64,000 nucleotides of DNA from Bacteroidales bacterium (GCA_963677975.1 OY782677.1:779605-843604), one strand, 5' to 3'. Numbered from the stretch's first letter, positions 18,388 to 63,900 are shown. Translations and numbers: made by a program. The notes: generated by a model not told the origin, from the sequence alone.

Positions 18388-18512
18388 GCTTTTTGGGTGA
18401 ATATTCCGGCCAAATAGAGCCAGTAAATCCGGACGAAAGTGAGCCACTAATCCGGTTGAAAGTGAGCCAGTAGGCAAGGAACAATGGTGTGGTAAAAATA
18501 GCTTTTTTCTTT

Positions 18513-19241: not shown

Positions 19242-19363
19242 AATGATTTGGTTTTAAAGAGTGGATAGTGTTGTGAAGTATGCTAACCTTCTTTTCCGCC
19301 CCCTTCCTGTGGGCATGTGGGCAGATATAGGAAGGGGAGCGGAGAAGAAGAGTAATCCGGGAG

Positions 19364-30213: not shown

Positions 30214-30351
30214 GGAATTGTTTAAAAGGGTTAAGAAACTCACCCCCATCCCCCTCTCTTTGAAATAAAGAGAAGGGATGGCTGGGCATATTTTTGTTAT
30301 TTCATTCTAAAAAGCAAAAGAAATCAAGTTAATTCAATCTGGTTTTGAGAG

Positions 30352-30789
30352 TCACCCCCTCTCTTCGTGAAGAGAGGGGGCTGGGGGGTGAGTTTTTCTG
30401 AACATTTCCCTTATTTTGAATAAAATATATTCTGTGTTATTTACATCAATGTTTTTCAACCTCAGGACCCTCAATCCAAGTTCAACAAGCACTGATGTTC
30501 GCCAATCATCATATTCGGCATGAAATGTATATATTCCTCCGTCCAGTTCTACAATTAATTTCTCTTCGGCACAATAAAAGTCGGCAATAAAAAATTGAAA
30601 AGAGTCGAAAGAATTTTCATAAATGATTTTATGCTGCCTGAGAAATTTTTTGCCATCAAGTTTTCTGTTTCGTACCATTTCCCACACAATCTTCTCAGCC
30701 TCAGTCATGTTTTTACGGTTTTCCCGACAAATGGCAACTACAAATTTCTTACGTGAAACCGGTTTCATCGCTTTTTTCAAGAAACTCAC
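30352..30789 (-). CDS. DUF559 (Vsr/restriction-endonuclease-like fold) protein, copy 1
   Basis: MTEAEKIVWEMVRNRKLDGKKFLRQH...FIADFYCAEEKLIVELDG...LGLRVLRLKNIDV matches the DUF559 pattern. The track start is GTG inside the repeat, so ATG 30768 (MKPVS) or the later MTEAEK is a more likely start. The C-terminal HPPAPSLHEERG is encoded by the hairpin element. Confidence 0.75.
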   Translation of the reverse strand: MSFLKKAMKPVSRKKFVVAICRENRKNMTEAEKIVWEMVRNRKLDGKKFLRQHKIIYENSFDSFQFFIADFYCAEEKLIVELDGGIYTFHAEYDDWRTSVLVELGLRVLRLKNIDVNNTEYILFKIREMFRKTHPPAPSLHEERG

Positions 30790-30897
30790 CCCCTGCCCCC
30801 TCTCTTTGAAATAAAGAGAGGGGGTGGCCGGGCATATTTTTGTTATTTCATTCTAAAAAGTAAAAGAAATCAAGTTAATTTAATCTGGTTTTGAGAG

Positions 30898-31335
30898 TCA
30901 CCCCCTCTCTTCGGGAAGAGAGGGGGCTGGGGGGTGAGTTTTTCTGAACATTTCCCTTATTTTGAATAAAATATATTCTGTGTTATTTACATCAATGTTT
31001 TTCAACCTCAGGACCCTCAATCCAAGTTCAACAAGCACTGATGTTCGCCAATCATCATATTCGGCATGAAATGTATGTATTCCTCCGTCCAGTTCTACAA
31101 TTAATTTCTCTTCGGCACAATAAAAGTTGGCAATAAAAAATTGAAAAGAGTCGAAAGAATTTTCATAAATGATTTTATGCTGCCTGAGAAATTTTTTGCC
31201 ATCAAGTTTTCTGTTTCGTACCATTTCCCACACAATCTTCTCAGCCTCAGTCATGTTTTTACGGTTTTCCCGACAAATGGCAACTACAAATTTCTTACGT
31301 GAAACCGGTTTCATCGCTTTTTTCAAGAAACTCAC
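30898..31335 (-). CDS. DUF559 (Vsr/restriction-endonuclease-like fold) protein, copy 2
   Basis: It differs from copy 1 at 3 of 145 residues (D->N, Y->H, H->P). The same start-codon caveat applies (ATG 31314). Confidence 0.75.
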   Translation of the reverse strand: MSFLKKAMKPVSRKKFVVAICRENRKNMTEAEKIVWEMVRNRKLDGKKFLRQHKIIYENSFDSFQFFIANFYCAEEKLIVELDGGIHTFHAEYDDWRTSVLVELGLRVLRLKNIDVNNTEYILFKIREMFRKTHPPAPSLPEERG

Positions 31336-42900: not shown

Positions 42901-45900
42901 TGTGGGAAGTTCAATCACTTTATCATCGACACCTTCGGGAGGCGCATCTCCCTACACCTTCAGCTGGACAGGTCCTGACGGTTATACCGGCAATACCGAA
43001 GATCCTACTGTATCAGCAAGCGCCACAACCGCGATGGCAGGTACCTATAATTTAATGGTTTCCGATACAAATGGGTGTTCTGCATACAGCAGCACCAGTG
43101 TTGTAGTTGATAACCAGCCGCCGACGGTAACAAGTTGTCCTTCCAATATCAGTCATGCGGTGGATGCCGGAGAATGCAACTATACAGTAAATCCATCAGA
43201 ACCGGTTTTTGCCGACAATTGCAGTGTTACAAGCGTAACATGGGTTATGGCGGGAGCCAACACGGGAAGTGGAAGCATAAGCATAGGCTCGACTGACTTT
43301 CTGACCGGTACAACCACGATAACTTATACTGCGCAGGATGCTGCGGGTAATACAGCGACCTGTTCCTTTACGGTAACAGTGACCGACAACATCAATCCGG
43401 CTATCACCTGCCCATCGAATGTGAGCCAGAATGTAAGCTCGGGATGCGATAAGTCCATAGCCATAACCGATCCGACCTATTCTGACAACTGTTCGGTAAC
43501 AGCATTAACCTGGGCGATGACAGGAGCCACCACGGCAACTTCGGCAGGCACAGGCATCAATGTTGTGGGCACACAAACCTTCAACGTAGGGACTTCCACA
43601 ATAACCTACACAGCGAAAGATGCAGCGAACAATACAGCGACCTGTTCATTTACAGTAACAGTGACCGACAACATCAATCCGGCTATCACCTGCCCATCGA
43701 ATGTGAGCCAGAATGTAAGTTCGGGATGCGATAAATCCATAGCAATAACCGATCCGACGTATTCTGACAACTGTTCGGTAACAGCATTAACCTGGGCGAT
43801 GACAGGAGCCACCACGGCAACTTCGGCAGGCACAGGCATCAATGTTGTGGGCACACAAACCTTCAACGTAGGGACTTCCACAATAACCTACACAGCGAAA
43901 GATGCAGCGAACAATATAGCGACCTGTTCATTTACAGTAACGGTGACCGACAACATCAATCCGGCTATCACCTGCCCATCGAATGTGAGCCAGAATGTAA
44001 GTTCGGGATGCGATAAATCCATAGCAATAACCGATCCGACGTATTCTGACAACTGTTCGGTAACAGCATTAACCTGGGCGATGACAGGAGCCACCACGGC
44101 AGCTTCGGCAGGCACAGGCATCAATGTTGTGGGCACACAAACTTTCAACGTAGGGACTTCCACAATAACCTACACAGCGAAAGATGCAGCGAACAATACA
44201 GCGACCTGTTCATTTACAGTAACGGTGACCGACAACATCAATCCGGCTATCACCTGCCCATCGAATGTGAGCCAGAATGTAAGTTCGGGATGCGATAAAT
44301 CCATAGCCATAACCGATCCGACCTATTCTGACAACTGTTCGGTAACAGCATTAACCTGGGCGATGACAGGAGCCACCACGGCAACTTCGGCAGGCACAGG
44401 CATCAATGTTGTGGGCACACAAACCTTCAACGTAGGGACTTCCACAATAACCTACACAGCGAAAGATGCAGCGAACAATACAGCGACCTGTTCATTTACA
44501 GTAACGGTGACCGACAACATCAATCCGGCTATCACCTGCCCATCGAATGTGAGCCAGAATGTAAGCTCGGGATGCGATAAGTCCATAGCCATAACCGATC
44601 CGACCTATTCTGACAACTGTTCGGTAACAGCATTAACCTGGGCGATGACAGGAGCCACCACGGCAACTTCGGCAGGCACAGGCATCAATGTTGTGGGCAC
44701 ACAAACCTTCAACGTAGGGACTTCCACAATAACCTACACAGCGAAAGATGCAGCGAACAATACAGCGACCTGTTCCTTTACAGTAACGGTGACCGACAAC
44801 ATCAATCCGGCTATCACCTGCCCATCGAATGTGAGCCAGAATGTAAGTTCGGGATGCGATAAATCCATAGCAATAACCGATCCGACGTATTCTGACAACT
44901 GTTCGGTAACAGCATTAACCTGGGCGATGACAGGAGCCACCACGGCAACTTCGGCAGGCACAGGCATCAATGTTGTGGGCACACAAACTTTCAACGTAGG
45001 GACTTCCACAATAACCTACACAGCGAAAGATGCAGCGAACAATACAGCGACCTGTTCATTTACAGTAACGGTGACCGACAACATCAATCCGGCTATCACC
45101 TGCCCATCGAATGTGAGCCAGAATGTAAGTTCGGGATGCGATAAATCCATAGCAATAACCGATCCGACGTATTCTGACAACTGTTCGGTAACAGCATTAA
45201 CCTGGGCGATGACAGGAGCCACCACGGCAACTTCGGCAGGCACAGGCATCAATGTTGTGGGCACACAAACTTTCAACGTAGGGACTTCCACAATAACCTA
45301 CACAGCGAAAGATGCAGCGAACAATATAGCGACCTGTTCCTTTACGGTAACGGTGACCGACAACATCAATCCGGCTATCACCTGCCCATCGAATGTGAGC
45401 CAGAATGTAAGTTCGGGATGCGATAAATCCATAGCAATAACCGATCCGACGTATTCTGACAACTGTTCGGTAACAGCATTAACCTGGGCAATGACAGGTG
45501 CCACCACGGCAACTTCGGCAGGCACAGGCATCAATGTTGTGGGCACACAAACCTTCAACGTAGGGACTTCCACAATAACCTACACAGCGAAAGATGCAGC
45601 GAACAATACAGCGAGCTGTTCATTTACAGTAACGTTGACCGACAACATCAATCCGGCTATCACCTGCCCATCGAATGTGAGCCAGAATGTAAGTTCGGGA
45701 TGCGATAAATCCATAGCAATAACCGATCCGACCTATTCTGACAACTGTTCGGTAACAGCATTAACCTGGGCGATGACAGGAGCCACCACGGCAACTTCGG
45801 CAGGCACAGGCATCAATGTTGTGGGCACACAAACCTTCAACGTAGGGACTTCCACAATAACCTACACAGCGAAAGATGCAGCGAACAATACAGCGACCTG

Positions 45901-48900
45901 TTCATTTACAGTAACAGTGACCGACAACATCAATCCAGCTATCACCTGCCCATCGAATGTGAGCCAGAATGTAAGCTCGGGATGCGATAAATCCATAGCA
46001 ATAACCGATCCGACGTATTCTGACAACTGTTCGGTAACAGCATTAACCTGGGCGATGACAGGAGCCACCACGGCAACTTCGGCAGGCACAGGCATCAATG
46101 TTGTGGGCACACAAACCTTCAACGTAGGGACTTCCACAATAACCTACACAGCGAAAGATGCAGCGAACAATACAGCGACCTGTTCATTTACAGTAACAGT
46201 GACCGACAACATCAATCCGGCTATCACCTGCCCATCGAATGTGAGCCAGAATGTAAGCTCGGGATGCGATAAATCCATAGCAATAACCGATCCGACGTAT
46301 TCTGACAACTGTTCGGTAACAGCATTAACCTGGGCGATGACAGGAGCCACCACGGCAACTTCGTCAGGCACAGGCATCAATGTTGTGGGCACACAAACCT
46401 TCAACGTAGGGACTTCCACAATAACCTACACAGCGAAAGATGCAGCGAACAATACAGCGACCTGTTCATTTACAGTAACAGTGACCGACAACATCAATCC
46501 GGCTATCACCTGCCCATCGAATGTGAGCCAGAATGTAAGTTCGGGATGCGATAAATCCATAGCAATAACCGATCCGACGTATTCTGACAACTGTTCGGTA
46601 ACAGCATTAACCTGGGCGATGACAGGAGCCACCACGGCAACTTCGGCAGGCACAGGCATCAATGTTGTGGGCACACAAACCTTCAACGTAGGGACTTCCA
46701 CAATAACCTACACAGCGAAAGATGCAGCGAACAATACAGCGACCTGTTCATTTACAGTAACGGTGACCGACAACATCAATCCGGCTATCACCTGCCCATC
46801 GAATGTGAGCCAGAATGTAAGTTCGGGATGCGATAAATCCATAGCCATAACCGATCCGACCTATTCTGACAACTGTTCGGTAACAGCATTAACCTGGGCG
46901 ATGACAGGAGCCACCACGGCAACTTCGGCAGGCACAGGCATCAATGTTGTGGGCACACAAACCTTCAACGTAGGGACTTCCACAATAACCTACACAGCGA
47001 AAGATGCAGCGAACAATACAGCGAGCTGTTCATTTACAGTAACAGTGACCGACAACATCAATCCGGCTATCACCTGCCCATCGAATGTGAGCCAGAATGT
47101 AAGTTCGGGATGCGATAAATCCATAGCAATAACCGATCCGACGTATTCTGACAACTGTTCGGTAACAGCATTAACCTGGGCGATGACAGGAGCCACCACG
47201 GCAACTTCGGCAGGCACAGGCATCAATGTTGTGGGCACACAAACTTTCAACGTAGGGACTTCCACAATAACCTACACAGCGAAAGATGCAGCGAACAATA
47301 CAGCGACCTGTTCATTTACAGTAACGGTGACCGACAACATCAATCCGGCTATCACCTGCCCATCGAATGTGAGCCAGAATGTAAGTTCGGGATGCGATAA
47401 ATCCATAGCAATAACCGATCCGACGTATTCTGACAACTGTTCGGTAACAGCATTAACCTGGGCGATGACAGGAGCCACCACGGCAACTTCGGCAGGCACA
47501 GGCATCAATGTTGTGGGCACACAAACCTTCAACGTAGGGACTTCCACAATAACCTACACAGCGAAAGATGCAGCGAACAATACAGCGAGCTGTTCCTTTA
47601 CGGTAACAGTGACTGACAACATCTCACCGAATATCAGCGACTGCGGGCTCAACCTGAGTGCGAATGCCAACGGCAGTTGCCAGGCAGCAGTACCTAATTT
47701 CACCACGGCAGTAGTAGCAACGGATAACTGTACGGCGAGCGGATCGCTGACCATTACCCAGAGCCCGGCGGCAACAACGCTTGTAGGCGCGGGAGTAACC
47801 ACAGTAACAATTTCCGTTGCGGATGCAGTGGGGAACACCTCTACCTGTTCGCGCACTTTTACGGTAACGGATAATGATCCTCCTGTTTTTGACTGCGGGA
47901 CCTTAACGACAGTAAGTTTAACGACGAATCCATCGACAGGATGTACGAATGATACAGATGTAACGCCACCAGTAGCAACAGATAACTGCGATACTCCGAT
48001 CACAGGGGTAGGCACGCGCAGCGATGCAGCAGCGATTAATGCAGCATGGCCGTTAGGCACCACCACAATTACCTGGACCTTCACCGATGCAGCTGGCAAC
48101 ACTACCACCTGTTCACAGAATGTAACGGTAACGGATAATGATCCTCCTGTTTTTGATTGCGGCACCTTAACGACAGTAACCTTAACGACGAATCCATCGA
48201 CGGGCTGTACGAACGACACAGATGTCACTCCTCCGGTCGCCACCGATAACTGCGACACACCGATTACGGGCGTTGGCACGCGCAACGATGCAGCAGCGAT
48301 TAATGCAGCATGGCCGTTAGGCACAACCACAATCACCTGGACATTTACAGATGCAGCGGGCAACAGTACGACCTGTTCCCAGAATGTTACGGTAACAGAT
48401 AATGATCCTCCTGTTTTTGACTGCGGGACCTTAACGACAGTAAGTTTAACGACGAATCCATCGACAGGATGTACGAATGATACAGATGTCACTCCTCCGG
48501 TCGCTACAGATAACTGCGACACGCCGATTACGGGCGTTGGCATGCGCAGCGACGCAGCAGGTATCAATTCGCCATGGACATTAGGCACCACAACGATCAC
48601 CTGGACCTTCACCGATGCAGCTGGCAACACTACCACCTGTTCACAGAATGTAACGGTAACGGATAATGATCCTCCTGTTTTTGATTGCGGCACCTTAACG
48701 ACAGTAAGTTTAACGACGAATCCATCGACGGGCTGTACGAACGACACAGATGTCACTCCTCCGGTCGCCACCGATAACTGCGACACACCGATTACGGGCG
48801 TTGGCACGCGCAGCGATGCAGCTGGTATCAATTCGCCATGGACATTAGGCACCACAACGATCACCTGGACCTTCACCGATGCAGCTGGCAACACTACCAC

Positions 48901-51900
48901 CTGTTCACAGAATGTAACGGTAACGGATAATGATCCTCCTGTTTTTGATTGCGGCACCTTAACGACAGTAGCCTTAACAACGAATCCATCAACAGGCTGT
49001 ACGAACGACACAGATGTCACTCCTCCGGTCGCCACCGATAACTGCGACACACCGATTACGGGCGTTGGAACGCGCAGCGACGCAGCTGGTATCAATTCGC
49101 CATGGACATTAGGCACCACAACGATCACCTGGACCTTTACCGATGCAGCGGGCAACAGTACGACCTGTTCACAGAATGTTACGGTAACGGATAATGATCC
49201 TCCAGTTTTTGATTGCGGCACCTTAACGACAGTAAGTTTAACGACGAATCCATCGACAGGATGTACGAATGATACAGATGTCACTCCTCCGGTCGCAACA
49301 GATAACTGCGACACGCCGATTACGGGCGTTGGAACGCGCAGCGACGCAGCTGGTATCAATTCGCCATGGACATTAGGCACCACAACGATCACCTGGACCT
49401 TTACCGATGCAGCGGGCAACAGTACGACCTGTTCACAGAATGTTACGGTAACGGATAATGATCCTCCTGTTTTTGACTGCGGGACTTTAACGACAGTAAG
49501 TTTAACGACGAATCCATCGACAGGATGTATGAATGATACAGATGTAACGCCGCCAGTCGCAACAGATAACTGCGATACCCCGATCACAGGGGTAGGCACG
49601 CGCAGCGATGCAGCAGCGATTAATGCAGCATGGCCGTTAGGCACCACCACAATCACCTGGACATTTACAGATGCAGCGGGCAACAGTACGACCTGTTCCC
49701 AGAATGTTACGGTAACGGATAATGATCCGCCAACAGTTGCCACCTGTCCCTCAAATATTTTGATAAATAATGAGCCTGGTATTTGTGGAGCTCATGTTAC
49801 ATATACACTTCCCACCTTTAATGATAACTGTGCCGGAAGCGGACTAACAGGGACACTTACAGCTGGCCAGGTATCAGGATCATTATTCCCCACCGGAACT
49901 ACGACTGTAACATATGAATATACAGATCCTTCAGGGAATGGTCCAGCTATCTGCAGTTTTACCGTTGTGGTAAAACCATGTGCCGATTTGACTATCACTA
50001 AAACAGACGGTACCGCCACCTATACCCCGGGAACAACCACAACCTACACTATTGTAGCCACTAATAATGGCCCGAGCAGTATAACCGGAGGCACCATATC
50101 GGATGCCATTCCATCGGGCACTACCTGGATTTTTACAGCCGTTGGCACAGGTGGAGCCACAGGCTTCACAAGCGGACCAGCAAACACAGCCATCAACGAT
50201 GTGGTGAACATGCCAAGCAGCAGTACAATTACTTATACGGTTGTAGTAACAATTCCAACAGGAAGAACCGGTAACCTGGTAAATACGGCTACAATCACTC
50301 CTCCCGCCGGAGTAGCGGATCCAACACCTGCTAACAATAATGCCGTAGATACAGATGTGCAGAACAGCATTGCCGATCTGAGAATCACCAAGACAGATGG
50401 TACTGCAACCTATACCCCCGGAACAACCACTACTTATACGATAGTTGCTACGAACAATGGCCCCAGCACGGTTATTGGTGCCACCATATCAGATGCAATC
50501 CCAGCTGGGACGACCTGGAGTTATACCGCAAGTTCTACCGGCTTAGCCACTGGTTTCACAGCTGGTCCAGCCACCACAGACATCAACGATGTTGTGAACA
50601 TGCCGGGTGGTAGTACTATTACCTATACTGTGGTAGTAACAATCCCATCGGGACAAACAGGTGACCTGGTAAATACTGCCACGATAGCAGTTCCGGTAGG
50701 AGTAACTGATCCTACACCAGGCAACAATAACGCAACAGATACCGATACAAAGAACAGCAAGGCTGACCTGAGCATAACCAAGACTGACGGGATCGGAACT
50801 TATATTCCAGGTACCACAACTACTTATATGATTGTTGTTACTAACAATGGTCCTAGTGATGTAACGGGAGCCACTGTAGCTGATGCCATTCCATCGGGTA
50901 CAACGTGGATTTATACAAGCAGCGCCGCAGGCGGGGCAACAGGCTATACACCAGGACCAGCCATTACTGCCATAAGCGATGTAGTAAATATGCCTGCCGG
51001 AAGCACTGTCACTTATAGCGTTGTTGTAACTATTCCTTCAGGACGAACCGGGAATCTGATAAATACGGCAACGGTCACAGCTCCTGTGGGTATACCTGAT
51101 CCGAACCCGGGCAACAACAGTGCAACAGACATCGACGCACAAAATAGTACAGCAGACCTGAGTATCACCAAGACGGATGGAATCGGAACTTATATTCCTG
51201 GCACTACGACCACCTACACGATCGTTGTCACTAATAGCGGTCCAAGTTATGTAACGGGAGCCACAATTTCGGATGCCATCCCATCAGGTACTACCTGGAG
51301 TTATACGGCAAGCGGTACAGGAGGAGCTACAGGCTTCACAACCGGTACAGGCACTGCTGCTATCAACAATACCGTAAACATGCCAGTTGGCAGCACGATC
51401 ACGTATATTGTAACAGTGACTATTCCTTCAGGCCGAACAGGAGACTTGGTCAATACGGCAACTGTCACCGCACCTGGAGGAGTTACAGATCCGACCCCGG
51501 GCAATAACAGTGCTACAGATACAGACACAAAAAACAGTGTCGCGGACCTGAGCATCACCAAGACGGACGGCAATGCTACTTATATCCCCGGTACTACGAC
51601 TACATACACGATCGTAGCCACAAATAATGGTCCAAGTAATGTAACGGGAGCTACCATTGCGGATGCTATCCCATCAGGCACGACATGGAGTTATACCGCA
51701 AGCGCTACCGGCGGAGCCACAGGCTTCACTGCCGGTCCGGCCACCACAGCCATCAACAATATAGTGAACATGCCTAGCGGTAGCAAGATTACATATACAG
51801 TTGTAGTAACAATTCCGTCAGGACGAACAGGTAACCTGGTGAATACTGCAACGGTGACCACACCTGTCGGTGTAACTGATCCGACCCCGGGCAATAACAG

Positions 51901-54900
51901 CGCTACGGATACTGACACTCAGAACAGTATAGCAGACCTGAGAATTACTAAGACAGATGGCCATGCTACCTATGTTCCCGGTACCACGACTACATACACA
52001 ATAGTAGCCACCAATACTGGTCCAAGCAATGTAACCGGAGCCTCAATTGCGGATGCCATTCCATCGGGCACAACATGGAGTTATTCGGCCAGCGCTACAG
52101 GTGGAGCCACAGGCTTCACAGCCGGACCAGCAACCAATGCTATTAGTGATGTTGTGAACATGCCAGGCGGCAGCACAATCACTTATACGGTTGTAGTTAC
52201 AATTCCATCAGGACGAACAGGCAATCTCGTGAATACGGCTTCAATTGTTGCTCCTGTTGGAGTGACGGACCCGACCCCAGGCAACAACAGTGCTACGGAT
52301 ACTGACACGCAGAACAGTATTGCTGACCTGAGAATTACTAAGACTGACGGAATTACTATTTATATCCCCGGTACCACGACCACATACACTATAGTGGCAA
52401 CTAACAATGGTCCGAGTAATGTAATAGGAGCCACCATATCGGATGCCATCCCCTCAGGAACAACCTGGAGTTATACAGCAAGCGCTACAGGCGGAGCTAC
52501 AGGCGTCACAGCCGGACCATCCACTACAGCTATCAGTGATGTAGTGAATATGCCAGGCGGCAGCACAATCACCTACATAGTGGTGCTTACGATTCCATCA
52601 GGACAAACAGGTGCCCTGATAAATACTGCTACGATTACTGTGCCGGGAGGAGTAACAGATCCTACACCTGGCAATAATACCGCAACCGATACCGATGTAC
52701 CTATGTCAAGTGCAGATCTTGTCACGGTCAAGACGGACGGCAACGCTACCTATACAGCAGGCACGAATGTGGTTTACACAGTAACGGTTACCAACAACGG
52801 ACCTAGCGATGCTGTGAATGTACTTGTAGCCGACAATGCCCCTTCGGGCACGGCCATCACAGGCTGGACGTCAAGCGGCACCGGCGCCACCCCGCCGAAT
52901 GCGAGCGGCATCGGCAACCTGTCAGAGACGGTCTTGAGCATGCCTAACGGCAGCAGTGTGACCTATACGATCACCGTAAGTGTACCTTCCGACTATACGG
53001 GCAACCTGGTAAATACGGCCACGGTAAGCAGCCCGACCCCGGATCCTGATCCGACATGCCCGGCATGTACCGATACGGACACCCCGAGCCCAAGCGCCAA
53101 CCTGGTGACGGTCAAAACGGACGGTAGTGCTACCTATACAGCAGGCACGAATGTGGTTTACACGGTAACGGTTACCAACAACGGACCTAGCGATGCTGTG
53201 AATGTACTTGTAGCCGACAATGCCCCAGCGGGCACGGCTATCACAGGCTGGACGGCAAGCGGCACAGGCGCCACCCCACCGAATGCGAGCGGCAGCGGTA
53301 ACCTGTCAGAGACGGTACCCGGCATGCCTAACGGCAGCAGTGTCACCTATACGATCACCGTAAGTGTACCTTCCGACTATACAGGCAACCTGGTAAATAC
53401 GGCCACGGTAAGCAGCCCGACCCCGGATCCGGATCCGACATGCCCGGCATGTACCGATACGGACACCCCGAGCCCAAGCGCCAACCTGGTGACGGTCAAG
53501 ACGGACGGTAGTGCTACCTATACAGCAGGCACGAATGTGGTTTACACGGTAACGGTTACCAACAACGGACCTAGCGATGCTGTGAATGTACTTGTAGCCG
53601 ACAATGCCCCAGCGGGCACGGCTATCACAGGCTGGACGGCAAGCGGCACCGGCGCCACCCCACCGAATGCGAGCGGCAGCGGCAACCTGTCAGAGACGGT
53701 ACCCGGCATGCCTAACGGCAGCAGTGTCACCTATACGATCACCGTAAGTGTACCTTCCGACTATACGGGCAACCTGGTAAATACGGCCACGGTAAGCAGC
53801 CCGACCCCGGATCCGGATCCGACATGCCCGGCATGTACCGATACGGACACCCCGAGCCCAAGCGCCAACCTGGTGACGGTCAAGACGGACGGTAGTGCTA
53901 CCTATACAGCAGGCACGAATGTGGTTTACACGGTAACGGTTACCAACAACGGACCTAGCGATGCTGTGAATGTACTTGTAGCCGACAATGCCCCAGCGGG
54001 CACGGCTATCACAGGCTGGACGGCAAGCGGCACAGGCGCCACCCCGCCGAATGCGAGCGGCAGCGGCAACCTGTCAGAGACGGTACCCGGCATGCCTAAC
54101 GGCAGCAGTGTGACCTATACGATCACCGTAAGTGTACCTTCCGACTATACGGGCAACCTGGTAAATACGGCCACGGTAAGCAGCCCGACCCCGGATCCTG
54201 ATCCGACATGCCCGGCATGTACCGATACGGACACCCCGAGCCCAAGCGCCAACCTGGTGACGGTCAAGACGGACGGCAATTCCACCTACACCGCAGGCAC
54301 GAATGTGGTTTACACGGTAACGGTTACCAACAACGGACCTAGCGATGCTGTGAATGTACTTGTAGCCGACAATGCCCCTTCGGGCACGGCCATCACAGGC
54401 TGGACGGCAAGCGGCACCGGCGCCACCCCACCGAATGCGAGCGGCAGCGGTAACCTGTCAGAGACGGTACCCGGCATGCCTAACGGCAGCAGTGTCACCT
54501 ATACGATCACCGTAAGTGTACCTTCCGACTATACAGGCAACCTGGTAAATACGGCCACGGTAAGCAGCCCGACCCCGGATCCGGATCCGACATGCCCGGC
54601 ATGTACCGATACGGACACCCCGAGCCCAAGCGCCAACCTGGTGACGGTCAAGACGGACGGTAGTGCTACCTATACAGCAGGCACGAATGTGGTTTACACG
54701 GTAACGGTTACCAACAACGGACCTAGCGATGCTGTGAATGTACTTGTAGCCGACAATGCCCCAGCGGGCACGGCTATCACAGGCTGGACGGCAAGCGGCA
54801 CCGGCGCCACCCCACCGAATGCGAGCGGCAGCGGCAACCTGTCAGAGACGGTACCCGGCATGCCTAACGGCAGCAGTGTCACCTATACGATCACCGTAAG

Positions 54901-57900
54901 TGTACCTTCCGACTATACGGGCAACCTGGTAAATACGGCCACGGTAAGCAGCCCGACCCCGGATCCGGATCCGACATGCCCGGCATGTACCGATACGGAC
55001 ACCCCGAGCCCAAGCGCCAACCTGGTGACGGTCAAGACGGACGGTAGTGCTACCTATACAGCAGGCACGAATGTGGTTTACACGGTAACGGTTACCAACA
55101 ACGGACCTAGCGATGCTGTGAATGTACTTGTAGCCGACAATGCCCCAGCGGGCACGGCTATCACAGGCTGGACGGCAAGCGGCACAGGCGCCACCCCGCC
55201 GAATGCGAGCGGCAGCGGCAACCTGTCAGAGACGGTACCCGGCATGCCTAACGGCAGCAGTGTCACCTATACGATCACCGTAAGTGTACCTTCCGACTAT
55301 ACGGGCAACCTGGTAAATACGGCCACGGTAAGCAGCCCGACCCCGGATCCTGATCCGACATGCCCGGCATGTACCGATACGGACACCCCGAGCCCAAGCG
55401 CCAACCTGGTGACGGTCAAGACGGACGGCAATTCCACCTACACCGCAGGCACGAATGTGGTTTACACGGTAACGGTTACCAACAACGGACCTAGCGATGC
55501 TGTGAATGTACTTGTAGCCGACAATGCCCCTTCGGGCACGGCCATCACAGGCTGGACGGCAAGCGGCACCGGCGCCACCCCACCGAATGCGAGCGGCAGC
55601 GGTAACCTGTCAGAGACGGTACCCGGCATGCCTAACGGCAGCAGTGTCACCTATACGATCACCGTAAGTGTACCTTCCGACTATACAGGCAACCTGGTAA
55701 ATACGGCCACGGTAAGCAGCCCGACCCCGGATCCGGATCCGACATGCCCGGCATGTACCGATACGGACACCCCGAGCCCAAGCGCCAACCTGGTGACGGT
55801 CAAGACGGACGGTAGTGCTACCTACACTGCAGGCACGAATGTGGTTTACACGGTAACGGTTACCAACAACGGACCTAGCGATGCTGTGAATGTACTTGTA
55901 GCCGACAATGCCCCTTCGGGCACGGCCATCACAGGCTGGACGGCAAGCGGCACAGGCGCCACCCCGCCGAATGCGAGCGGCATCGGCAACCTGTCAGAGA
56001 CGGTCTTGAGCATGCCTAACGGCAGCAGTGTGACCTATACGATCACCGTAAGCGTACCTTCCGACTATACGGGCAACCTGGTAAATACGGCCACGGTAAG
56101 CAGCCCGACCCCGGATCCTGATCCGACATGCCCGGCATGTACCGATACGGACACCCCGAGCCCAAGCGCCAACCTGGTGACGGTCAAAACGGACGGTAGT
56201 GCTACCTATACAGCAGGCACGAATGTGGTTTACACGGTAACGGTTACCAACAACGGACCTAGCGATGCTGTGAATGTACTTGTAGCCGACAATGCCCCAG
56301 CGGGCACGGCTATCACAGGCTGGACGGCAAGCGGCACAGGCGCCACCCCACCGAATGCGAGCGGCAGCGGCAACCTGTCAGAGACGGTCTTGAGCATGCC
56401 TAACGGCAGCAGTGTGACCTATACGATCACCGTAAGTGTACCTTCCGACTATACGGGCAACCTGGTAAATACGGCCACGGTAAGCAGCCCGACCCCGGAT
56501 CCTGATCCGACATGCCCGGCATGTACCGATACGGACACCCCGAGCCCAAGCGCCAACCTGGTGACGGTCAAGACGGACGGCAATGCCACCTACACTGCAG
56601 GCACGAATGTGGTTTACACGGTAACGGTTACCAACAACGGACCTAGCGATGCTGTGAATGTACTTGTAGCCGACAATGCCCCTTCGGGCACGGCCATCAC
56701 AGGCTGGACGTCAAGCGGCACCGGCGCCACCCCGCCGAATGCGAGCGGCATCGGCAACCTGTCAGAGACGGTCTTGAGCATGCCTAACGGCAGCAGTGTG
56801 ACCTATACGATCACCGTAAGTGTACCTTCCGACTATACGGGCAACCTGGTAAATACGGCCACGGTAAGCAGCCCGACCCCGGATCCTGATCCGACATGCC
56901 CGGCATGTACCGATACGGACACCCCGAGCCCAAGCGCCAACCTGGTGACGGTCAAGACGGACGGTAGTGCTACCTATACAGCAGGCACGAATGTGGTTTA
57001 CACGGTAACGGTTACCAACAACGGACCTAGCGATGCTGTGAATGTACTTGTAGCCGACAATGCCCCTTCGGGCACGGCCATCACAGGCTGGACGGCAAGC
57101 GGCACCGGCGCCACCCCACCGAATGCGAGCGGCAGCGGTAACCTGTCAGAGACGGTACCCGGCATGCCTAACGGCAGCAGTGTCACCTATACGATCACCG
57201 TAAGTGTACCTTCCGACTATACAGGCAACCTGGTAAATACGGCCACGGTAAGCAGCCCGACCCCGGATCCGGATCCGACATGCCCGGCATGTACCGATAC
57301 GGACACCCCGAGCCCAAGCGCCAACCTGGTGACGGTCAAGACGGACGGCAATGCCACCTACACTGCAGGCACGAATGTGGTTTACACGGTAACGGTTACC
57401 AACAACGGACCTAGCGATGCTGTGAATGTACTTGTAGCCGACAATGCCCCTTCGGGCACGGCCATCACAGGCTGGACGTCAAGCGGCACCGGCGCCACCC
57501 CGCCGAATGCGAGCGGCATCGGCAACCTGTCAGAGACGGTCTTGAGCATGCCTAACGGCAGCAGTGTGACCTATACGATCACCGTAAGCGTGCCTTCAAA
57601 CTATACGGGCAACCTGGTAAATACGGCCACGGTAAGCAGCCCGACCCCGGATCCTGATCCGACATGCCCGGCATGTACCGATACGGACACCCCGAGCCCA
57701 AGCGCCAACCTGGTGACGGTCAAGACGGACGGCAATTCCACCTACACCGCAGGCACGAATGTGGTTTACACGGTAACGGTTACCAACAACGGACCTAGCG
57801 ATGCTGTGAATGTACTTGTAGCCGACAATGCCCCAGCGGGCACGGCCATCACAGGCTGGACGGCAAGCGGCACCGGCGCCACCCCACCGAATGCGAGCGG

Positions 57901-60900
57901 CAGCGGTAACCTGTCAGAGACGGTACCCGGCATGCCTAACGGCAGCAGTGTCACCTATACGATCACCGTAAGTGTACCTTCCGACTATACGGGCAACCTG
58001 GTAAATACGGCCACGGTAAGCAGCCCGACTCCGGATCCTGATCCGACATGCCCGGCATGTACCGATACGGACACCCCGAGCCCAAGCGCCAACCTGGTGA
58101 CGGTCAAGACGGACGGCAATGCCACCTACACTGCAGGCACGAATGTGGTTTACACGGTAACGGTTACCAACAACGGACCTAGCGATGCTGTGAATGTACT
58201 TGTAGCCGACAATGCCCCTTCGGGCACGGCTATCACAGGCTGGACGTCAAGCGGCACCGGCGCCACCCCACCGAATGCGAGCGGCATCGGCAACCTGTCA
58301 GAGACGGTACCCGGCATGCCTAACGGCAGCAGTGTCACCTATACGATCACCGTAAGCGTGCCTTCAAACTATACGGGCAACCTGGTAAATACGGCCACGG
58401 TAAGCAGCCCGACTCCGGATCCTGATCCGACATGCCCGGCATGTACCGATACGGACACCCCGAGCCCAAGCGCCAACCTGGTGACGGTCAAGACGGACGG
58501 CAATGCCACCTACACCGCAGGCACGAATGTGGTTTACACGGTAACGGTTACCAACAACGGACCTAGCGATGCTGTGAATGTACTTGTAGCCGACAATGCC
58601 CCTTCGGGCACGGCTATCACAGGCTGGACGGCAAGCGGCACAGGCGCCACCCCACCGAATGCGAGCGGCATCGGCAACCTGTCAGAGACGGTACCCGGCA
58701 TGCCTAACGGCAGCAGTGTCACCTATACGATCACCGTAAGTGTACCTTCCGACTATACGGGCAACCTGGTAAATACGGCCACGGTAAGCAGCCCGACCCC
58801 GGATCCGGATCCGACATGCCCGGCATGTACCGATACGGACACCCCGAGCCCAAGCGCCAACCTGGTGACGGTCAAGACGGACGGTAGTGCTACCTATACA
58901 GCAGGCACGAATGTGGTTTACACGGTAACGGTTACCAACAACGGACCTAGCGATGCTGTGAATGTACTTGTAGCCGACAATGCCCCTTCGGGCACGGCTA
59001 TCACAGGCTGGACGGCAAGCGGCACAGGCGCCACCCCACCGAATGCAAGCGGCAGCGGCAACCTGTCAGAGACGGTACCCGGCATGCCTAACGGCAGCAG
59101 TGTCACCTATACGATCACCGTAAGTGTACCTTCCGACTATACGGGCAACCTGGTAAATACGGCCACGGTAAGCAGCCCGACCCCGGATCCGGATCCGACA
59201 TGCCCGGCATGTACCGATACGGACACCCCGAGCCCAAGCGCCAACCTGGTGACGGTCAAGACGGACGGCAATGCCACCTACACTGCAGGCACGAATGTGG
59301 TTTACACGGTAACGGTTACCAACAACGGACCTAGCGATGCTGTGAATGTACTTGTAGCCGACAATGCCCCTTCGGGCACGGCCATCACAGGCTGGACGTC
59401 AAGCGGCACCGGCGCCACCCCGCCGAATGCGAGCGGCATCGGCAACCTGTCAGAGACGGTCTTGAGCATGCCTAACGGCAGCAGTGTGACCTATACGATC
59501 ACCGTAAGTGTACCTTCCGACTATACGGGCAACCTGGTAAATACGGCCACGGTAAGCAGCCCGACCCCGGATCCGGATCCGACATGCCCGGCATGTACCG
59601 ATACGGACACCCCGAGCCCAAGCGCCAACCTGGTGACGGTCAAGACGGACGGTAGTGCTACCTATACAGCAGGCACGAATGTGGTTTACACAGTAACGGT
59701 TACCAACAACGGACCTAGCGATGCTGTGAATGTACTTGTAGCCGACAATGCCCCAGCGGGCACGGCTATCACAGGCTGGACGGCAAGCGGCACCGGCGCC
59801 ACCCCACCAAATGCGAGCGGCAGCGGCAACCTGTCAGAGACGGTACCCGGCATGCCTAACGGCAGCAGTGTCACCTATACGATCACCGTAAGTGTACCTT
59901 CCGACTATACTGGCAACCTGGTAAATACGGCCACGGTAAGCAGCCCGACCCCGGATCCGGATCCGACATGCCCGGCATGTACCGATACGGATCAAAATTA
60001 TTCTTTAACAGTTGTAAAAACTCAGACCTCGGGACCAAATCCAGTAACTGCAGCAGGGCAATTACTAACATATAGTATTGTAATAACCAATTCTGGAACA
60101 ATTAACCAGACCGGATTAGTACCGACGGAGATCTATCCTGGTGCAGGCACAGGCACTTTGAGCGCAGCGACTGAAAGCATTAGCACGAATGGCATTCTGA
60201 ATGTCGGGGAGACCTGGACTTACATAGCTACTTACACTACCACTCAGGCGGATGTAGATGCAGCTATACCGCTTATTAACACGATCAGTGTGGTAACAAA
60301 TGAAATGCCCAGCCCGACTACGGATACGGAAACGACTCCGGTCATATCAACTCCTGTTATATCACTTACCAAAACAGCTGACGATGTAAGCGATGTAACC
60401 TTAGGCCAGACGATCACTTATACTTATGTTATAACCAACACAGGTAATGTAACGATGAGCAATGTGAGTGTTTCAGACGTGATCAACGTAGGAACAGGCA
60501 CACTGAGTTCGATATCCCCTACCAGTGTTGCAAGCCTTGCAGTTGGAGCAAGTACGAGCTTCACGGCCACTTATATAGTGACACAGGCAGACGTTAACCA
60601 CCAGGTGAATATTACCAATACCGCTACAGCCACTGCTTACAACGGAGCGACACCATATACAGCTACCGACAACGAAAGTGTTGATGTTACCGATTTACCA
60701 ACAGCTGTAACAGATACCTATACCACAACGGAAGACACACCTATAACGCTCTTACCGTTAACCGGTGACAGCGATCCTGACGGCGGTACCCTGTCGATTA
60801 CCTCGATCAACGGAGTGACCCTGACCCCGGGCACAGCGCAGACGATCCCTGTAACCAACGGAACGGTAAGTATCACAGCAGGCGGGGTCATAACCTTTAC

Positions 60901-63900
60901 CCCGGCAGCCAACTATTTCGGAACAGTGACCTTCCCGTATGTAATCAGCGACGGCCAGGGCGGCACTGCCACAGCCGATGAGATTATCAACATCAGCTCG
61001 GTGAATGATCCACCAATAGCTGTAACAGATACCTATACCACAACGGAAGACACGCCTGTAACGCTCTTACCGTTAACCGGCGACAGTGATCCTGACGGCG
61101 GCACCCTGTCGATCACCTCGATCAACGGAGTGACCCTGACCCCTGGCACAGCGCAGACGATCCCTGTAACCAACGGAACGGTAAGTATCACAGCAGGCGG
61201 GGTCATAACCTTTACCCCGGCAGCCAACTATTTCGGAACAGTAACCTTCCCGTATGTAATCAGCGACGGCCAGGGCGGCACTGCCACAGCCGATGAGATT
61301 ATCAACATCAGCTCGGTGAATGATCCACCAATAGCTGTAACAGATACCTATACCACAACGGAAGACACACCTGTAACGCTCTTACCGTTAACCGGCGACA
61401 GCGATCCTGACGGCGGCACCCTGTCGATCACCTCGATCAACGGAGTGACCCTGACCCCTGGCACAGCGCAGACGATCCCTGTAACCAACGGAACGGTAAG
61501 TATCACAGCAGGCGGGGTCATAACCTTTACCCCGGCAGCCAACTATTTCGGAACAGTGACCTTCCCGTATGTAATCAGCGACGGCCAGGGCGGCACCGCC
61601 ACAGCCGATGAGATTATCAACATCAGCTCGGTGAACGATCCACCAATAGCTGTAACAGATACCTATACCACAACGGAAGACACACCTGTAACGCTCTTAC
61701 CGTTAACCGGTGACAGCGATCCTGACGGCGGTACCCTGTCGATTACCTCGATCAACGGAGTGACCCTGACCCCGGGCACAGCGCAGACGATCCCTGTAAC
61801 CAACGGAACGGTAAGTATCACAGCAGGCGGGGTCATAACCTTTACCCCGGCAGCCAACTATTTCGGAACAGTAACCTTCCCGTATGTAATCAGCGACGGC
61901 CAGGGCGGCACTGCCACAGCCGATGAGATTATCAACATCAGCTCGGTGAATGATCCACCAATAGCTGTAACAGATACCTATACCACAACAGAAGACACAC
62001 CTGTAACGCTGTTACCGTTAACCGGCGACAGCGATCCTGACGGCGGCACCCTGTCGATCACCTCGATCAACGGAGTGACCCTGACCCCTGGCACAGCGCA
62101 GACGATCCCTGTAACCAACGGAACGGTAAGTATCACAGCAGGCGGGGTCATAACCTTTACCCCGGCAGCCAACTATTTCGGAACAGTAACCTTCCCGTAT
62201 GTAATCAGCGACGGCCAGGGCGGCACTGCCACAGCCGATGAGATTATCAACATCAGCTCGGTGAACGATCCACCAATAGCCGTAACAGATACTTATACCA
62301 CAACGGAAGACACACCTGTAACGCTCTTACCATTAACCGGTGACAGCGATCCTGACGGCGGTACCCTGTCGATTACCTCGATCAACGGAGTGACCCTGAC
62401 CCCTGGCACAGCGCAGACGATCCCTGTAACCAACGGAACGGTAAGTATCACAGCAGGCGGGGTCATAACCTTTACCCCGGCAGCCAACTATTTCGGAACA
62501 GTAACCTTCCCGTATGTAATCAGCGACGGCCAGGGCGGCACCGCCACAGCCGATGAGATTATCAACATCAGCTCGGTGAACGATCCACCAATAGCTGTAA
62601 CAGATACCTATACCACAACAGAAGACACACCTGTAACGCTGTTACCGTTAACCGGCGACAGCGATCCTGACGGCGGCACCCTGTCGATCATCTCGATCAA
62701 CGGAGTGACCCTGACCCCTGGCACAGCGCAGACGATCCCTGTAACCAACGGAACGGTAAGTATCACAGCAGGCGGGGTCATAACCTTTACCCCGGCAGCC
62801 AACTATTTCGGAACAGTAACCTTCCCGTATGTAATCAGCGACGGCCAGGGCGGCACTGCCACAGCCGATGAGATTATCAACATCAGCTCGGTGAATGATC
62901 CACCAATAGCTGTGACAGATACCTATACCACAACGGAAGACACACCTGTAACGCTGTTACCGTTAACCGGCGACAGTGATCCTGACGGCGGCACCCTATC
63001 GATCACCTCGATCAACGGAGTGACCCTGACCCCTGGCACCGCGCAGACGATCCCTGTAACCAACGGAACGGTAAGTATCACAGCAGGCGGGGTCATAACC
63101 TTTACCCCGGCAGCCAACTATTTCGGAACAGTGACCTTCCCGTATGTAATCAGCGACGGCCAGGGCGGCACAGCTACAGCCGATGAGATTATCAACATCA
63201 GCTCGGTGAACGATCCACCAATAGCTGTAACAGATACCTATACCACAACGGAAGACACACCTGTAACGCTCTTACCGTTAACCGGTGACAGCGATCCTGA
63301 CGGCGGTACCCTGTCGATTACCTCGATCAACGGAGTGACCCTGACCCCGGGCACAGCGCAGACGATCCCTGTAACCAACGGAACGGTAAGTATCACAGCA
63401 GGCGGGGTCATAACCTTTACCCCGGCAGCCAACTATTTCGGAACAGTGACCTTCCCGTATGTAATCAGCGACGGCCAGGGCGGCACTGCCACAGCCGATG
63501 AGATTATCAACATCAGCTCGGTGAATGATCCACCAATAGCTGTAACAGATACCTATACCACAACGGAAGACACGCCTGTAACGCTCTTACCGTTAACCGG
63601 CGACAGTGATCCTGACGGCGGCACCCTGTCGATCACCTCGATCAACGGAGTGACCCTGACCCCTGGCACAGCGCAGACGATCCCTGTAACCAACGGAACG
63701 GTAAGTATCACAGCAGGCGGGGTCATAACCTTTACCCCGGCAGCCAACTATTTCGGAACAGTAACCTTCCCGTATGTAATCAGCGACGGCCAGGGCGGCA
63801 CTGCCACAGCCGATGAGATTATCAACATCAGCTCGGTGAACGATCCACCAACAGCTGTGACAGATACCTATACCACAGCTGAAGACACACCTGTAACGCT

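What the first reader, a model, noticed from the sequence alone, without database searches (positions are those of the whole stretch)
49982..59992. Old-to-young gradient in one DUF11 super-array: 7 diverged 390-bp units lead into 19 homogenised 384-bp units with mosaic variant combinations
The gene contains 26 consecutive DUF11-type modules. The first 7 (130 aa each) are clearly diverged from one another. The next 19 (128 aa each) are almost identical at DNA level.

Within the young array, four dimorphic sites occur in at least four combinations:
- unit at 52712: PSG / TSSG / GIG / VLSM
- unit at 53096: PAG / TASG / GSG / VPGM
- unit at 55784: PSG / TASG / GIG / VLSM
- unit at 56168: PAG / TASG / GSG / VLSM

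This shows exchange between units, so the array is recombinationally active. It is a plausible source of length or antigenic variation in a surface protein. The young array is also visibly more GC-rich than the rest of the window.
Basis: seen in the sequence. Interest (0 to 1): 0.6.

Follow-up and report, generated by a model that had tools for sequence, protein, structure and literature searches.

The report
Repeat-domain stalk of giant adhesin
This stretch encodes 26 back-to-back copies of a stalk-building domain in a 13,906-residue bacterial surface protein; the last 19 copies are kept nearly identical by DNA exchange between them, a known behaviour of long bacterial adhesins, with one unexplained extra: a sharp rise in silent-site G+C limited to the near-identical copies.

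Summary
One open frame (start 36953, runs off the window; product 13,906 aa in the source contig) holds 7 x 390-bp and 19 x 384-bp DUF11 units, in register at 49982 and 52712. DUF11 has recently been renamed CLIPPER, an isopeptide-bonded Ig-like stalk domain.

There is no old-to-young gradient. The two arrays are separate subtypes (45% aa identity, all 7 old units equally far from the young ones). Both subtypes sit side by side as single copies in a different protein from another metagenome, so each was amplified separately.

The young array is a true mosaic:
- 59% of informative site pairs fail the four-gamete test, against 7% in a no-recombination null.
- At least 9 breakpoints are needed.
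- Two unit types are shuffled in blocks.
- A 3-unit duplication carries 1 mismatch in 1406 bp.

Exchange between units and a recent change in length are therefore supported, if the assembly is right. Antigenic variation is not supported: dN/dS is 0.15 and all units keep the isopeptide triad.

The G+C excess is real and purely synonymous (GC3 0.65 against 0.41 in the old array and 0.44 background). It steps at array borders, and its cause is open; biased gene conversion is one candidate. Copy-number variation could not be tested.

Verdict: a new member of a known kind (variable-length "periscope"-type fibrillar adhesin). Moderate-to-low interest.

The parts
36953..64000 (+). 5' 27 kb of one giant gene. 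The N-terminus reads MKGKRNVVLLCLGIMLTLGTLQTKAQ, which looks like a signal peptide. The product is 13,906 aa in the source contig, so the gene should end about 14.7 kb beyond the window.
   Evidence: Frame open from 36797 to 64000. Gene call on ENA contig ERZ21831265:ctg82123l, product 13,906 aa starting at window 36953. That locus is 100% identical to the window.
49982..52711 (+). Old array: 7 x 390 bp (130 aa) CLIPPER/DUF11 units of subtype 1. No cysteines; the K7/D41/N101 triad is kept.
   Evidence: DNA identity 69-81%. dS saturated at 1.6, dN 0.13. GC3 0.36-0.48 per unit. Triad.
52712..60007 (+). Young array: 19 x 384 bp (128 aa) CLIPPER/DUF11 units of subtype 2. Each has the K7/D41/N101 triad and a C116-P-A-C119 motif.
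   Evidence: Mean DNA identity 96.2%. dS 0.10, dN/dS 0.15. 208 of 351 site pairs incompatible, Rm >= 9. GC3 0.59-0.70 per unit.
53267..55824 (+). Higher-order duplication of 3 units (1152-bp period): 53267-54672 is repeated at 54419-55824 with a single mismatch.
   Evidence: Units 53480 and 54632 are identical, as are 54248 and 55400.
60008..60700 (+). Unique segment after the array, with two DUF7507 (CLIPPER_2) modules. GC3 drops back to 0.40.
   Evidence: Pfam; GC3.
43314..47623 (+). Same gene: 282 bp x 15.3 HYR-domain array at 98% identity, also mosaic. GC3 0.51.
47859..49728 (+). Same gene: 264 bp x 7.1 HYR-domain array at 91% identity. GC3 0.48.
60697..64000 (+). Same gene: 315 bp x >10.5 Big_9/cadherin-like array at 97% identity, running off the window. 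GC3 0.60.

Best explanation
The region is the middle of the stalk of a 13,906-residue secreted, fibrillar-adhesin-like surface protein. The organism is an uncultured member of Bacteroidota, close to Bacteroidales.

The region holds two independent tandem arrays of the CLIPPER (DUF11) domain, a CnaA-like Ig sandwich locked by an internal Lys-Asn isopeptide bond. The 7-unit array is an ancient amplification of one subtype whose copies no longer exchange DNA: silent sites are saturated while the protein is conserved. The 19-unit array is a much later amplification of a second subtype that still evolves in concert.

Mechanism (inferred). Because the young units share long runs of identical DNA, homologous recombination between misaligned or mismatched units has two effects. 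It copies short tracts, tens to about 200 bp, from one unit into another (gene conversion), which shuffles two unit types into block mosaics. It also adds or removes whole units (unequal exchange or replication slippage), as in the 3-unit duplication.

Purifying selection keeps every unit a working stalk module. The likely phenotypic output is a change in stalk length, that is, how far the distal parts of the protein project. It is not a change of epitopes.

Shown: domain identity, the two subtypes, mosaicism, the recent duplication, purifying selection, and the synonymous G+C excess. Inferred: surface location, the recombination pathway, length variation in the population, and formation of the isopeptide and disulfide bonds.
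For: - Architecture and domain family.
- Fold: an AlphaFold2 model of a young unit (pLDDT 80, eight strands) has as its best solved match PDB 9IFR, the CLIPPER domain of a Gram-negative fibrillar adhesin (TM 0.79/0.82, rmsd 2.2 A, 28% identity). The paper describing it (PMC12617251) renames DUF11 to CLIPPER, shows a K715-N806 isopeptide with D748 and a C-T-T-C disulfide, and states that the domain usually forms adhesin stalks.
- All 26 units keep K7/D41/N101 at matching spacing. Young units carry C116-x-x-C119.
- Two subtypes: old and young consensus are 45% identical in protein and 55% in DNA, with no trend across the old units. L079 carries subtype 2 twice and then subtype 1 once, adjacent, in a protein with a T9SS type B sorting domain. 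L079-c is as close to the old units (71-82% aa) as they are to each other (71-88%).
- Exchange: four-gamete failures 59% against a null of 7%. Block-wise A/B painting over 18 diagnostic sites. Identity does not decay with distance along the array. The array's outer edges escape homogenisation.
- Recent length change: 1406 bp duplicated at a 1152-bp offset with 1 mismatch.
- Constraint: dN/dS 0.15.
- Sequence quality: no indels, and the frame stays open over 27 kb.
Against: - No second genome, orthologue or read set could be reached, so copy-number variation and the phasing of the variants rest on one metagenome assembly.
- The C-terminus, and so the anchor or sorting signal, lies outside the window.
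- No adhesive domain was identified in the N-terminal 2100 aa.
- The two unit types differ at about 5% of sites, mostly synonymous. The array is therefore not very young in absolute terms, and part of the mosaic could come from recombination with a diverged allele of another strain rather than from exchange inside one array.
- The PHI-like test for spatial clustering of compatible sites is only weakly significant (p = 0.024).
Confidence: 0.75

Rival explanations
1. Assembly or polishing artefact. The order of the units, their number, or the phase of the variants was produced by an assembler threading reads from one or several co-existing strains through a 7.3-kb near-identical repeat.
For: - The sequence comes from a metagenome contig.
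- Tandem repeats are a documented source of assembly error (PMC6868369, listed).
- A k-mer assembly of run ERR12015701 breaks exactly where the first homogenised array starts, at window 43402.
- No independent copy of the array was found.
Against: - All 19 units are exactly 384 bp with no indel, and the frame stays open for 27 kb.
- The contig is 3.0 Mb, and its name style matches long-accurate-read metagenome assemblers. That match is from memory and was not verified. Reads from such platforms usually exceed 7.3 kb.
- The variants form long parental blocks rather than random scatter, though a chimeric path would also give blocks.
Confidence: 0.1
2. The mosaic comes mainly from recombination between alleles of different strains. 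Stretches of a diverged array would be imported by ordinary homologous recombination after DNA uptake, not exchanged between units of one array.
For: - Two deep unit types, with 18 fixed differences in 354 bp, are mixed rather than forming a star-like cloud of variants.
- dS between units averages 0.10 and reaches 0.23, which is large for a recent amplification.
Against: - Switches between types occur within single 384-bp units and several times per unit. This needs very short tracts whatever the donor.
- The 3-unit duplication is an intra-array event.
- The same kind of mosaicism is seen in the 282-bp and 315-bp arrays of the gene.
Confidence: 0.15
3. Programmed antigenic variation. The dimorphic sites would be epitopes reshuffled to escape antibodies, phages or grazers.
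For: The variable residues fall mostly in predicted loops or strand ends (positions 11, 12, 45, 67, 75-76 and 94 against the strand map). The combinations are shuffled into 7 patterns.
Against: - dN/dS is 0.15.
- 22 of about 32 variable core columns are synonymous.
- Most amino-acid changes are conservative S/A, N/S or D/N swaps.
- There are no silent donor cassettes or invertible elements near the array.
- Each protein molecule carries all the variants at once, so shuffling them changes little of what is displayed.
Confidence: 0.04
4. The G+C-rich young array is foreign. A unit or short array would have been acquired from a G+C-richer organism and then amplified, so the composition reflects its origin and not a process acting in place.
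For: - GC3 of 0.65 is far outside the window's gene range of 0.37-0.50.
- In L079 the three CLIPPER units (GC3 0.48-0.49) are also richer than their host ORF (0.38). The cassette may therefore travel.
Against: - The closest relatives of the unit found anywhere are 82-85% identical (L079, GC3 0.48) and then 62% or less. None is G+C-rich and close.
- Two other homogenised arrays of unrelated domains in the same gene are also raised (GC3 0.60 and 0.51), while the non-homogenised segments between them are not (0.40-0.48). The foreign-origin reading would need several separate imports.
Confidence: 0.12

Closest known systems
Periscope Proteins: SasG, Rib, Sgo_0707, CdrA, Esp and others (Whelan et al. 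2021, PMC8201768)
   Same: Both have tandem arrays of folded, mostly Ig-like domains with very high DNA identity inside a long surface protein. That paper proposes intragenic recombination as the source of gain and loss of repeats, and finds the largest arrays where repeat identity is highest.
   Different: - Repeat-number variation between strains defines the class, and it is not shown here.
- The organism is an uncultured environmental member of Bacteroidota, not a cultured pathogen.
- This protein carries at least three homogenised arrays of different domains plus two diverged ones. At 13,906 aa it is far longer than the named examples as I recall them (from memory; lengths not checked).
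CLIPPER (DUF11) domain of fibrillar adhesin B9T28_05395, Acinetobacter silvestris, PDB 9IFR (Costa et al. 2025, PMC12617251)
   Same: - Same Pfam family.
- Best structural match to the model of a young unit (TM about 0.8).
- The Lys/Asp/Asn triad is at matching spacing.
- There is a C-x-x-C motif in the last strand, C-P-A-C here and C-T-T-C in 9IFR and in L079-b.
   Different: - Only 28% sequence identity.
- The bonds are inferred here, not observed.
- The old subtype lacks the cysteines.
T9SS type B cargo proteins of Bacteroidota with long Ig-like repeat regions, such as the L079 protein found here and SprB of Flavobacterium johnsoniae (SprB from memory)
   Same: Same phylum, an N-terminal signal peptide, very long repeat-rich architecture and shared CLIPPER subtypes. 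L079 ends in TIGR04131, the T9SS type B sorting domain.
   Different: The C-terminus of the window's protein is outside the window, so T9SS sorting is untested. L079 has single diverged copies where the window gene has arrays.
Concerted evolution with GC-biased gene conversion: mammalian converted gene pairs (PMC2720389, listed, not read; the GC3 statement is from memory) and recombining bacterial genes (Lassalle et al. 2015, PMC4450053; abstract read)
   Same: Sequences that undergo frequent conversion show raised GC3, independent of the amino acids encoded. Here GC3 is 0.74 in young units against 0.38 in old units at 56 homologous positions that encode the same amino acid.
   Different: Those cases concern separate genes or alleles, not units inside one bacterial gene. 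The evidence here is one gene, with small counts (Fisher p = 0.03) and no general trend among 38 arrays from other loci.

Membership tests
DUF11 / CLIPPER domain (Pfam PF01345, TIGR01451) | Match to the family profile above the curated cut-off | tested here: met
   PF01345 scores 390.9 bits over 7 stretches in the old array and 256.8 bits over 4 young units, against a cut-off of 24.6. TIGR01451 scores 45.3 and 38.8 bits against a cut-off of 24.
DUF11 / CLIPPER domain (Pfam PF01345, TIGR01451) | CnaA-like Ig beta-sandwich fold | tested here: met
   This is a prediction only. The AlphaFold2 model has pLDDT 80.4 and eight strands. The top Foldseek PDB hit is 9IFR, the CLIPPER domain, with E = 2.5e-07 and TM 0.79/0.82.
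DUF11 / CLIPPER domain (Pfam PF01345, TIGR01451) | Intramolecular isopeptide triad (Lys, Asn, catalytic Asp); not universal in the family | tested here: met
   K7, D41 and N101 are invariant in all 19 young units. K7 and D41 were checked in all 7 old units, and N101 is invariant in the 11-unit alignment that holds all 7 old units. The offsets of +34 and +94 compare with +33 and +91 in 9IFR. Residues only; bond formation is not testable here.
Periscope Proteins | Tandem array of folded domains with very high DNA identity | tested here: met
   19 units at a mean of 96.2% DNA identity, plus two further arrays at 97-98%.
Periscope Proteins | Repeat number differs between strains or isolates | not testable with these tools
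   No orthologue above 47% identity in the N-terminal part and no second copy of the array in any collection. The giant product exceeds the 5000-aa limit of the look-up tools. The indirect hint is a 3-unit duplication with 1 mismatch in 1406 bp.
Periscope Proteins | Cell-surface protein with an anchor at one end and a functional domain projected by the stalk | tested here: inconclusive
   A signal-peptide-like N-terminus is seen in the sequence. No adhesive domain was recognised. The C-terminus is outside the window.
T9SS cargo (type A or B C-terminal sorting domain) | C-terminal sorting domain TIGR04183 or TIGR04131 | not testable with these tools
   The gene ends about 14.7 kb beyond the window. 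Only the relative L079 could be tested, and it has TIGR04131 at 47.3 bits.
Recombination-driven antigenic variation systems (pilE/pilS and vlsE type; features from memory) | Excess of amino-acid-changing variation in exchanged segments, and silent donor cassettes | tested here: not met
   dN/dS is 0.15. Only 8 variable residues of 128 lie away from the array edges, and most of the changes are conservative. There is no separate cassette locus in the window.

The most novel reading that the evidence does not exclude
The step-like rise of synonymous G+C could be the footprint of GC-biased gene conversion acting between repeat units inside a single bacterial gene. The rise is confined to the three homogenised arrays (GC3 0.65, 0.60 and 0.51). 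It is absent from the diverged arrays and unique segments between them (0.40-0.48; background 0.44).

The gene would then be an internally controlled case. Promoter, strand, expression level and, for the two CLIPPER arrays, domain type are all the same. That would separate conversion bias from selection on codon usage.

Support so far:
- GC3 of 0.74 against 0.38 at 56 homologous same-amino-acid positions.
- 23 AT-to-GC against 10 GC-to-AT changes on the lineage of the amplified unit, compared with 6 against 11 on its single-copy relative (Fisher p = 0.03).
- AT-to-GC derived variants are present in more units than GC-to-AT ones (mean 10.8 against 6.6, p = 0.06).

Against: no significant trend in 38 arrays from other loci, and the most homogeneous array has the smallest excess.
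Probability: 0.25. Interest if true: 0.55.

Novelty: new member of a known kind. Interest (0 to 1): 0.3.

Why it matters
As an adhesin, this gene adds an environmental Bacteroidota example, and an extreme one, to the variable-length stalk proteins so far described mostly in cultured pathogens. It is 13,906 aa long, with five arrays of three domain types.

It also shows in one gene both ends of the life of a repeat array. One is a frozen, diverged array. The other is an actively homogenised array of the same domain family. An outside sequence (L079) shows that the two were amplified separately.

The practical lesson is that 'young' arrays need read-level validation before their mosaics are interpreted.

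The part that could matter more widely is the synonymous G+C step at array borders. If it is general, tandem arrays in long-read bacterial genomes would give a simple, well-controlled test of biased gene conversion in bacteria.

Tried and rejected
- Close relatives of the young unit. A protein search with two units plus the following segment found nothing above 54% identity. That tool appears to list only hits up to 1.75 times the query length (852 aa for a 487-aa query, 3695 aa for 2116 aa), so giant proteins cannot be reached.
- Orthologues in species-representative genomes. The segment after the array matches Saprospiraceae MAG proteins at about 50% only. These carry their own DUF7507 arrays and are not orthologues. 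I first took the organism for Saprospiraceae and dropped that: the biotin carboxylase gene in the window is closest to Bacteroidales (81%), Mariniphaga (76%) and Prolixibacteraceae (73%) among named hits.
- An exact 28-mer of the young unit in JGI metagenome contigs gave no match.
- Sequence search of the PDB, with one unit and with a profile, gave only chance hits. The fold search was what found 9IFR.
- Literature search for the run and assembly accessions found nothing.
- General test of array identity against GC3 excess, on 38 arrays from the window, its duplicate locus L001 and the other fetched loci: Spearman rho 0.22, p = 0.19. This neither confirms nor excludes the conversion-bias idea, because few of those arrays are highly homogenised.
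- Recurrent mutation as the source of the mosaic is rejected by simulation.
- A nearest-neighbour exchange model is rejected, because identity does not fall with distance along the array.
- The four-gamete counts for the old array are uninformative, because its silent sites are saturated.


Full report
**What is there.** A single + strand reading frame is open from 36797 to the end of the window (9068 codons). The window is 100% identical to ENA metagenome contig ERZ21831265:ctg82123l (3.0 Mb). On that contig a gene is called from window position 36953 with a product of 13,906 aa, so about 14.7 kb of the gene lies beyond the window. The N-terminus (MKGKRNVVLLCLGIMLTLGTLQTKAQ...) looks like a signal peptide (read from the sequence, not tested with a predictor).

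Tandem Repeats Finder reports five in-frame arrays in the gene (domains from Pfam):

| Period x copies | Identity | Domain |
|---|---|---|
| 282 bp x 15.3 | 98% | HYR |
| 264 bp x 7.1 | 91% | HYR |
| 390 bp x 6.8 | 75% | DUF11 |
| 384 bp x 18.9 | 96% | DUF11 |
| 315 bp x >10.5 | 97% | Big_9 / cadherin-like |

The finding concerns the third and fourth arrays.

**Check of the observation.** Translating in register from 49982 gives seven 130-aa units. From 52712 it gives nineteen 128-aa units, followed by unrelated sequence from 60008. Old units are 69-81% identical in DNA (mean 74%). Young units are 90-100% identical (mean 96.2%), and two pairs are identical. The young array is 0.59-0.61 G+C; elsewhere the window is 0.35-0.52, except in the 315-bp array at its 3' end (0.54-0.56).

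**What the units are.** Both arrays match DUF11 (PF01345) and TIGR01451 well above the curated cut-offs. An AlphaFold2 model of a young unit is an eight-stranded sandwich with pLDDT 80. Its best solved match is PDB 9IFR, the CLIPPER domain of an Acinetobacter fibrillar adhesin (TM 0.79/0.82).

The paper behind that structure (PMC12617251) makes four relevant points:
- It renames DUF11 to CLIPPER.
- It shows a Lys-Asn isopeptide bond with a catalytic Asp, and a C-T-T-C disulfide in the last strand.
- It shows that the bond gives heat and protease resistance.

All 26 units here keep K7, D41 and N101 at matching spacing. Young units also have C116-P-A-C119, and old units have no cysteine. These are stalk modules. 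The bonds themselves are inferred.

**No gradient, but two subtypes.** The old and young consensus sequences share 45% of residues and 55% of bases. Each of the seven old units is 45-49% identical to the young consensus, with no trend towards the junction.

A scan of JGI metagenome contigs with one young unit found L079 (Ga0118677_10006055). In L079, a 4302-aa protein ending in a T9SS type B sorting domain carries three adjacent CLIPPER units:
- two of the young subtype, 70% and 82% identical in protein to the young consensus;
- then one of the old subtype, 82% identical to the old consensus.

That old-subtype unit is as close to the window's old units (71-82%) as those are to one another (71-88%). 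Both subtypes are therefore old paralogues that existed side by side before either array formed. Each was amplified on its own in the window gene, and their order here is the reverse of that in L079. Another contig (L080) has a diverged 384-bp x 9.7 array (72% identity) of units about 62% identical in protein to the young units.

**Age and selection.** Silent-site divergence among old units is saturated (dS about 1.6), with dN 0.13. Among young units dS is 0.10 and dN 0.015, which gives dN/dS of 0.15. Away from the two outer edges of the array, only eight residues of 128 vary, and most of the changes are S/A, N/S or D/N. This is purifying selection on a structural module, not diversification.

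**Exchange between units.** The core of the young units (columns 13-366) has 36 variable columns, of which 27 are informative.
- 208 of 351 site pairs show all four gametes, and at least nine breakpoints are needed.
- A tree-only null with recurrent mutation, restricted to 118 two-state sites, gave 7% incompatible pairs on average and never more than 43% in 500 runs. The observed value is 59%.
- Painting the units against two reference types (units 56552 and 53480, 18 diagnostic sites) shows pure units of each type and chimeras with one to several switches, in blocks.
- Identity does not fall with distance along the array.
- Only the first 12 bases of unit 1 and the last 16 of unit 19 escape homogenisation. 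This is the pattern I would expect for array edges, which have unique flanks.
- Segment 53267-54672 recurs at 54419-55824, exactly three units later, with one mismatch. This is a very recent gain of three units.
- The 282-bp and 315-bp arrays are mosaic too.

The simplest mechanism is homologous exchange between units: short-tract conversion plus unequal exchange or slippage. The pathway is inferred, and part of the mosaic could come from recombination with diverged alleles of other strains.

**The G+C excess.** It lies at third codon positions. GC1/2/3 is 0.46/0.62/0.41 in the old array and 0.51/0.62/0.65 in the young array, and 16 other genes in the window average GC3 0.44.
- At 56 homologous positions encoding the same amino acid, GC3 is 0.74 in young units and 0.38 in old units. 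At 103 such positions it is 0.66 in young units and 0.49 in the single-copy relative L079-b.
- GC3 steps at array borders. Old units are 0.36-0.48, young units 0.59-0.70, the next unique segment 0.40, and the 315-bp units 0.58-0.63. The 282-bp array is 0.51 and the 91%-identity array 0.48.
- With L079-a as outgroup, the lineage of the amplified unit shows 23 AT-to-GC against 10 GC-to-AT changes, compared with 6 against 11 for L079-b (Fisher p = 0.03).
- Derived AT-to-GC variants occupy more units than GC-to-AT ones (mean 10.8 against 6.6, p = 0.06).

This fits GC-biased conversion as proposed for bacteria (PMC4450053). However, the counts are small and the polarisation is across 24-34% DNA divergence. 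The most homogeneous array has the smallest excess, and 38 arrays taken from the window and the fetched loci show no significant trend (rho 0.22, p = 0.19). A foreign origin would need several separate imports and has no donor candidate. I leave the cause open.

**Organism.** The biotin carboxylase in the window is closest, among named sequences, to Bacteroidales (81%), Mariniphaga (76%) and Prolixibacteraceae (73%). The N-terminal 2116 aa of the giant protein belong to a wide family of large repetitive proteins at 47% identity or less, with no orthologue.

**Limits.** Everything rests on one metagenome assembly.
- In its favour, there are no indels and the frame is intact over 27 kb.
- Also in its favour, the contig name matches the style of assemblers for long accurate reads, but that is from memory and unverified.
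- Neither reads nor a second copy could be examined, so copy-number variation and variant phasing are untested.
- A k-mer assembly of run ERR12015701 stops exactly at the first homogenised array. This shows how fragile such regions are.

**Comparison with known systems and verdict.** The closest known class is the Periscope Proteins. These are surface proteins whose stalks are arrays of near-identical domains and whose repeat number varies between strains through intragenic recombination (PMC8201768). This gene meets the architectural criterion, but not yet the defining one of observed length variation. It also fits the CLIPPER-stalk fibrillar adhesins of PMC12617251. It is a new and unusually large member of a known kind. 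The 'gradient' and 'antigenic variation' readings should be dropped, and the synonymous G+C step is the only feature that might repay a wider study.

Noticed in passing
window 18411-21156, - strand: An IS21-family insertion sequence. It has istA (19364-20926; rve and Mu-transposase C-terminal domains) and istB (18513-19241; IstB_IS21, 212 bits). It is flanked by inverted sets of about 23-bp repeats (AATCCGGAnGAAAGTGAGCCAC), two to three copies at 18411-18472 and five at 20977-21156. These resemble the multiple terminal transposase-binding repeats typical of IS21 (that typicality is from memory).
   Followed up: yes
window 36953-64000 and beyond: The gene product is 13,906 aa according to the gene call on the source contig, which would place it among the largest bacterial proteins (from memory). 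It contains at least five separate in-frame tandem arrays of three domain families (HYR, CLIPPER/DUF11, Big_9/cadherin-like). There are also four isolated DUF11 modules at about 41.0-42.8 kb and two DUF7507 modules at 60008-60700.
   Followed up: partly
window 47554-49743 and 55904-58408, - strand: Long stop-free antisense frames of 729 and 835 codons lie inside the arrays. They are by-products of repeating a unit that happens to lack stops on the opposite strand, and a gene caller could mistake them for genes.
   Followed up: no
window 52712-60007; L079 9686-10069: Every young unit carries C-P-A-C near its C-terminus. The related single-copy unit L079-b has C-T-T-C, the exact tetrapeptide disulfide motif of the solved CLIPPER domain. 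The old subtype and L079-a have no cysteines. The disulfide is therefore a trait of one sub-lineage of the domain.
   Followed up: partly
L079 9302-10459 (JGI Ga0118677_10006055): Both CLIPPER subtypes of the window gene occur as adjacent single units, in reverse order, inside a different T9SS type B protein. That protein also has a 258-bp x 9.9 array at 85% identity. This suggests the modules are shuffled between giant adhesin genes.
   Followed up: partly
L004 10096-17750; L006 5926-16601; L009 8531-11777: Saprospiraceae MAGs carry 354-bp DUF7507 (CLIPPER_2) arrays of 9 to 30 units at 80-90% identity. In L009 the arrays have GC3 0.17-0.25 above the rest of their gene, a second case of the G+C excess seen in the window.
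   Followed up: partly
window 30350-31300 (L001 7719-8681): Two adjacent 138-aa DUF559 (very-short-patch-repair-like endonuclease fold) genes lie in tandem upstream of the sigma-54 activator gene, as listed in the gene calls of the source contig.
   Followed up: no
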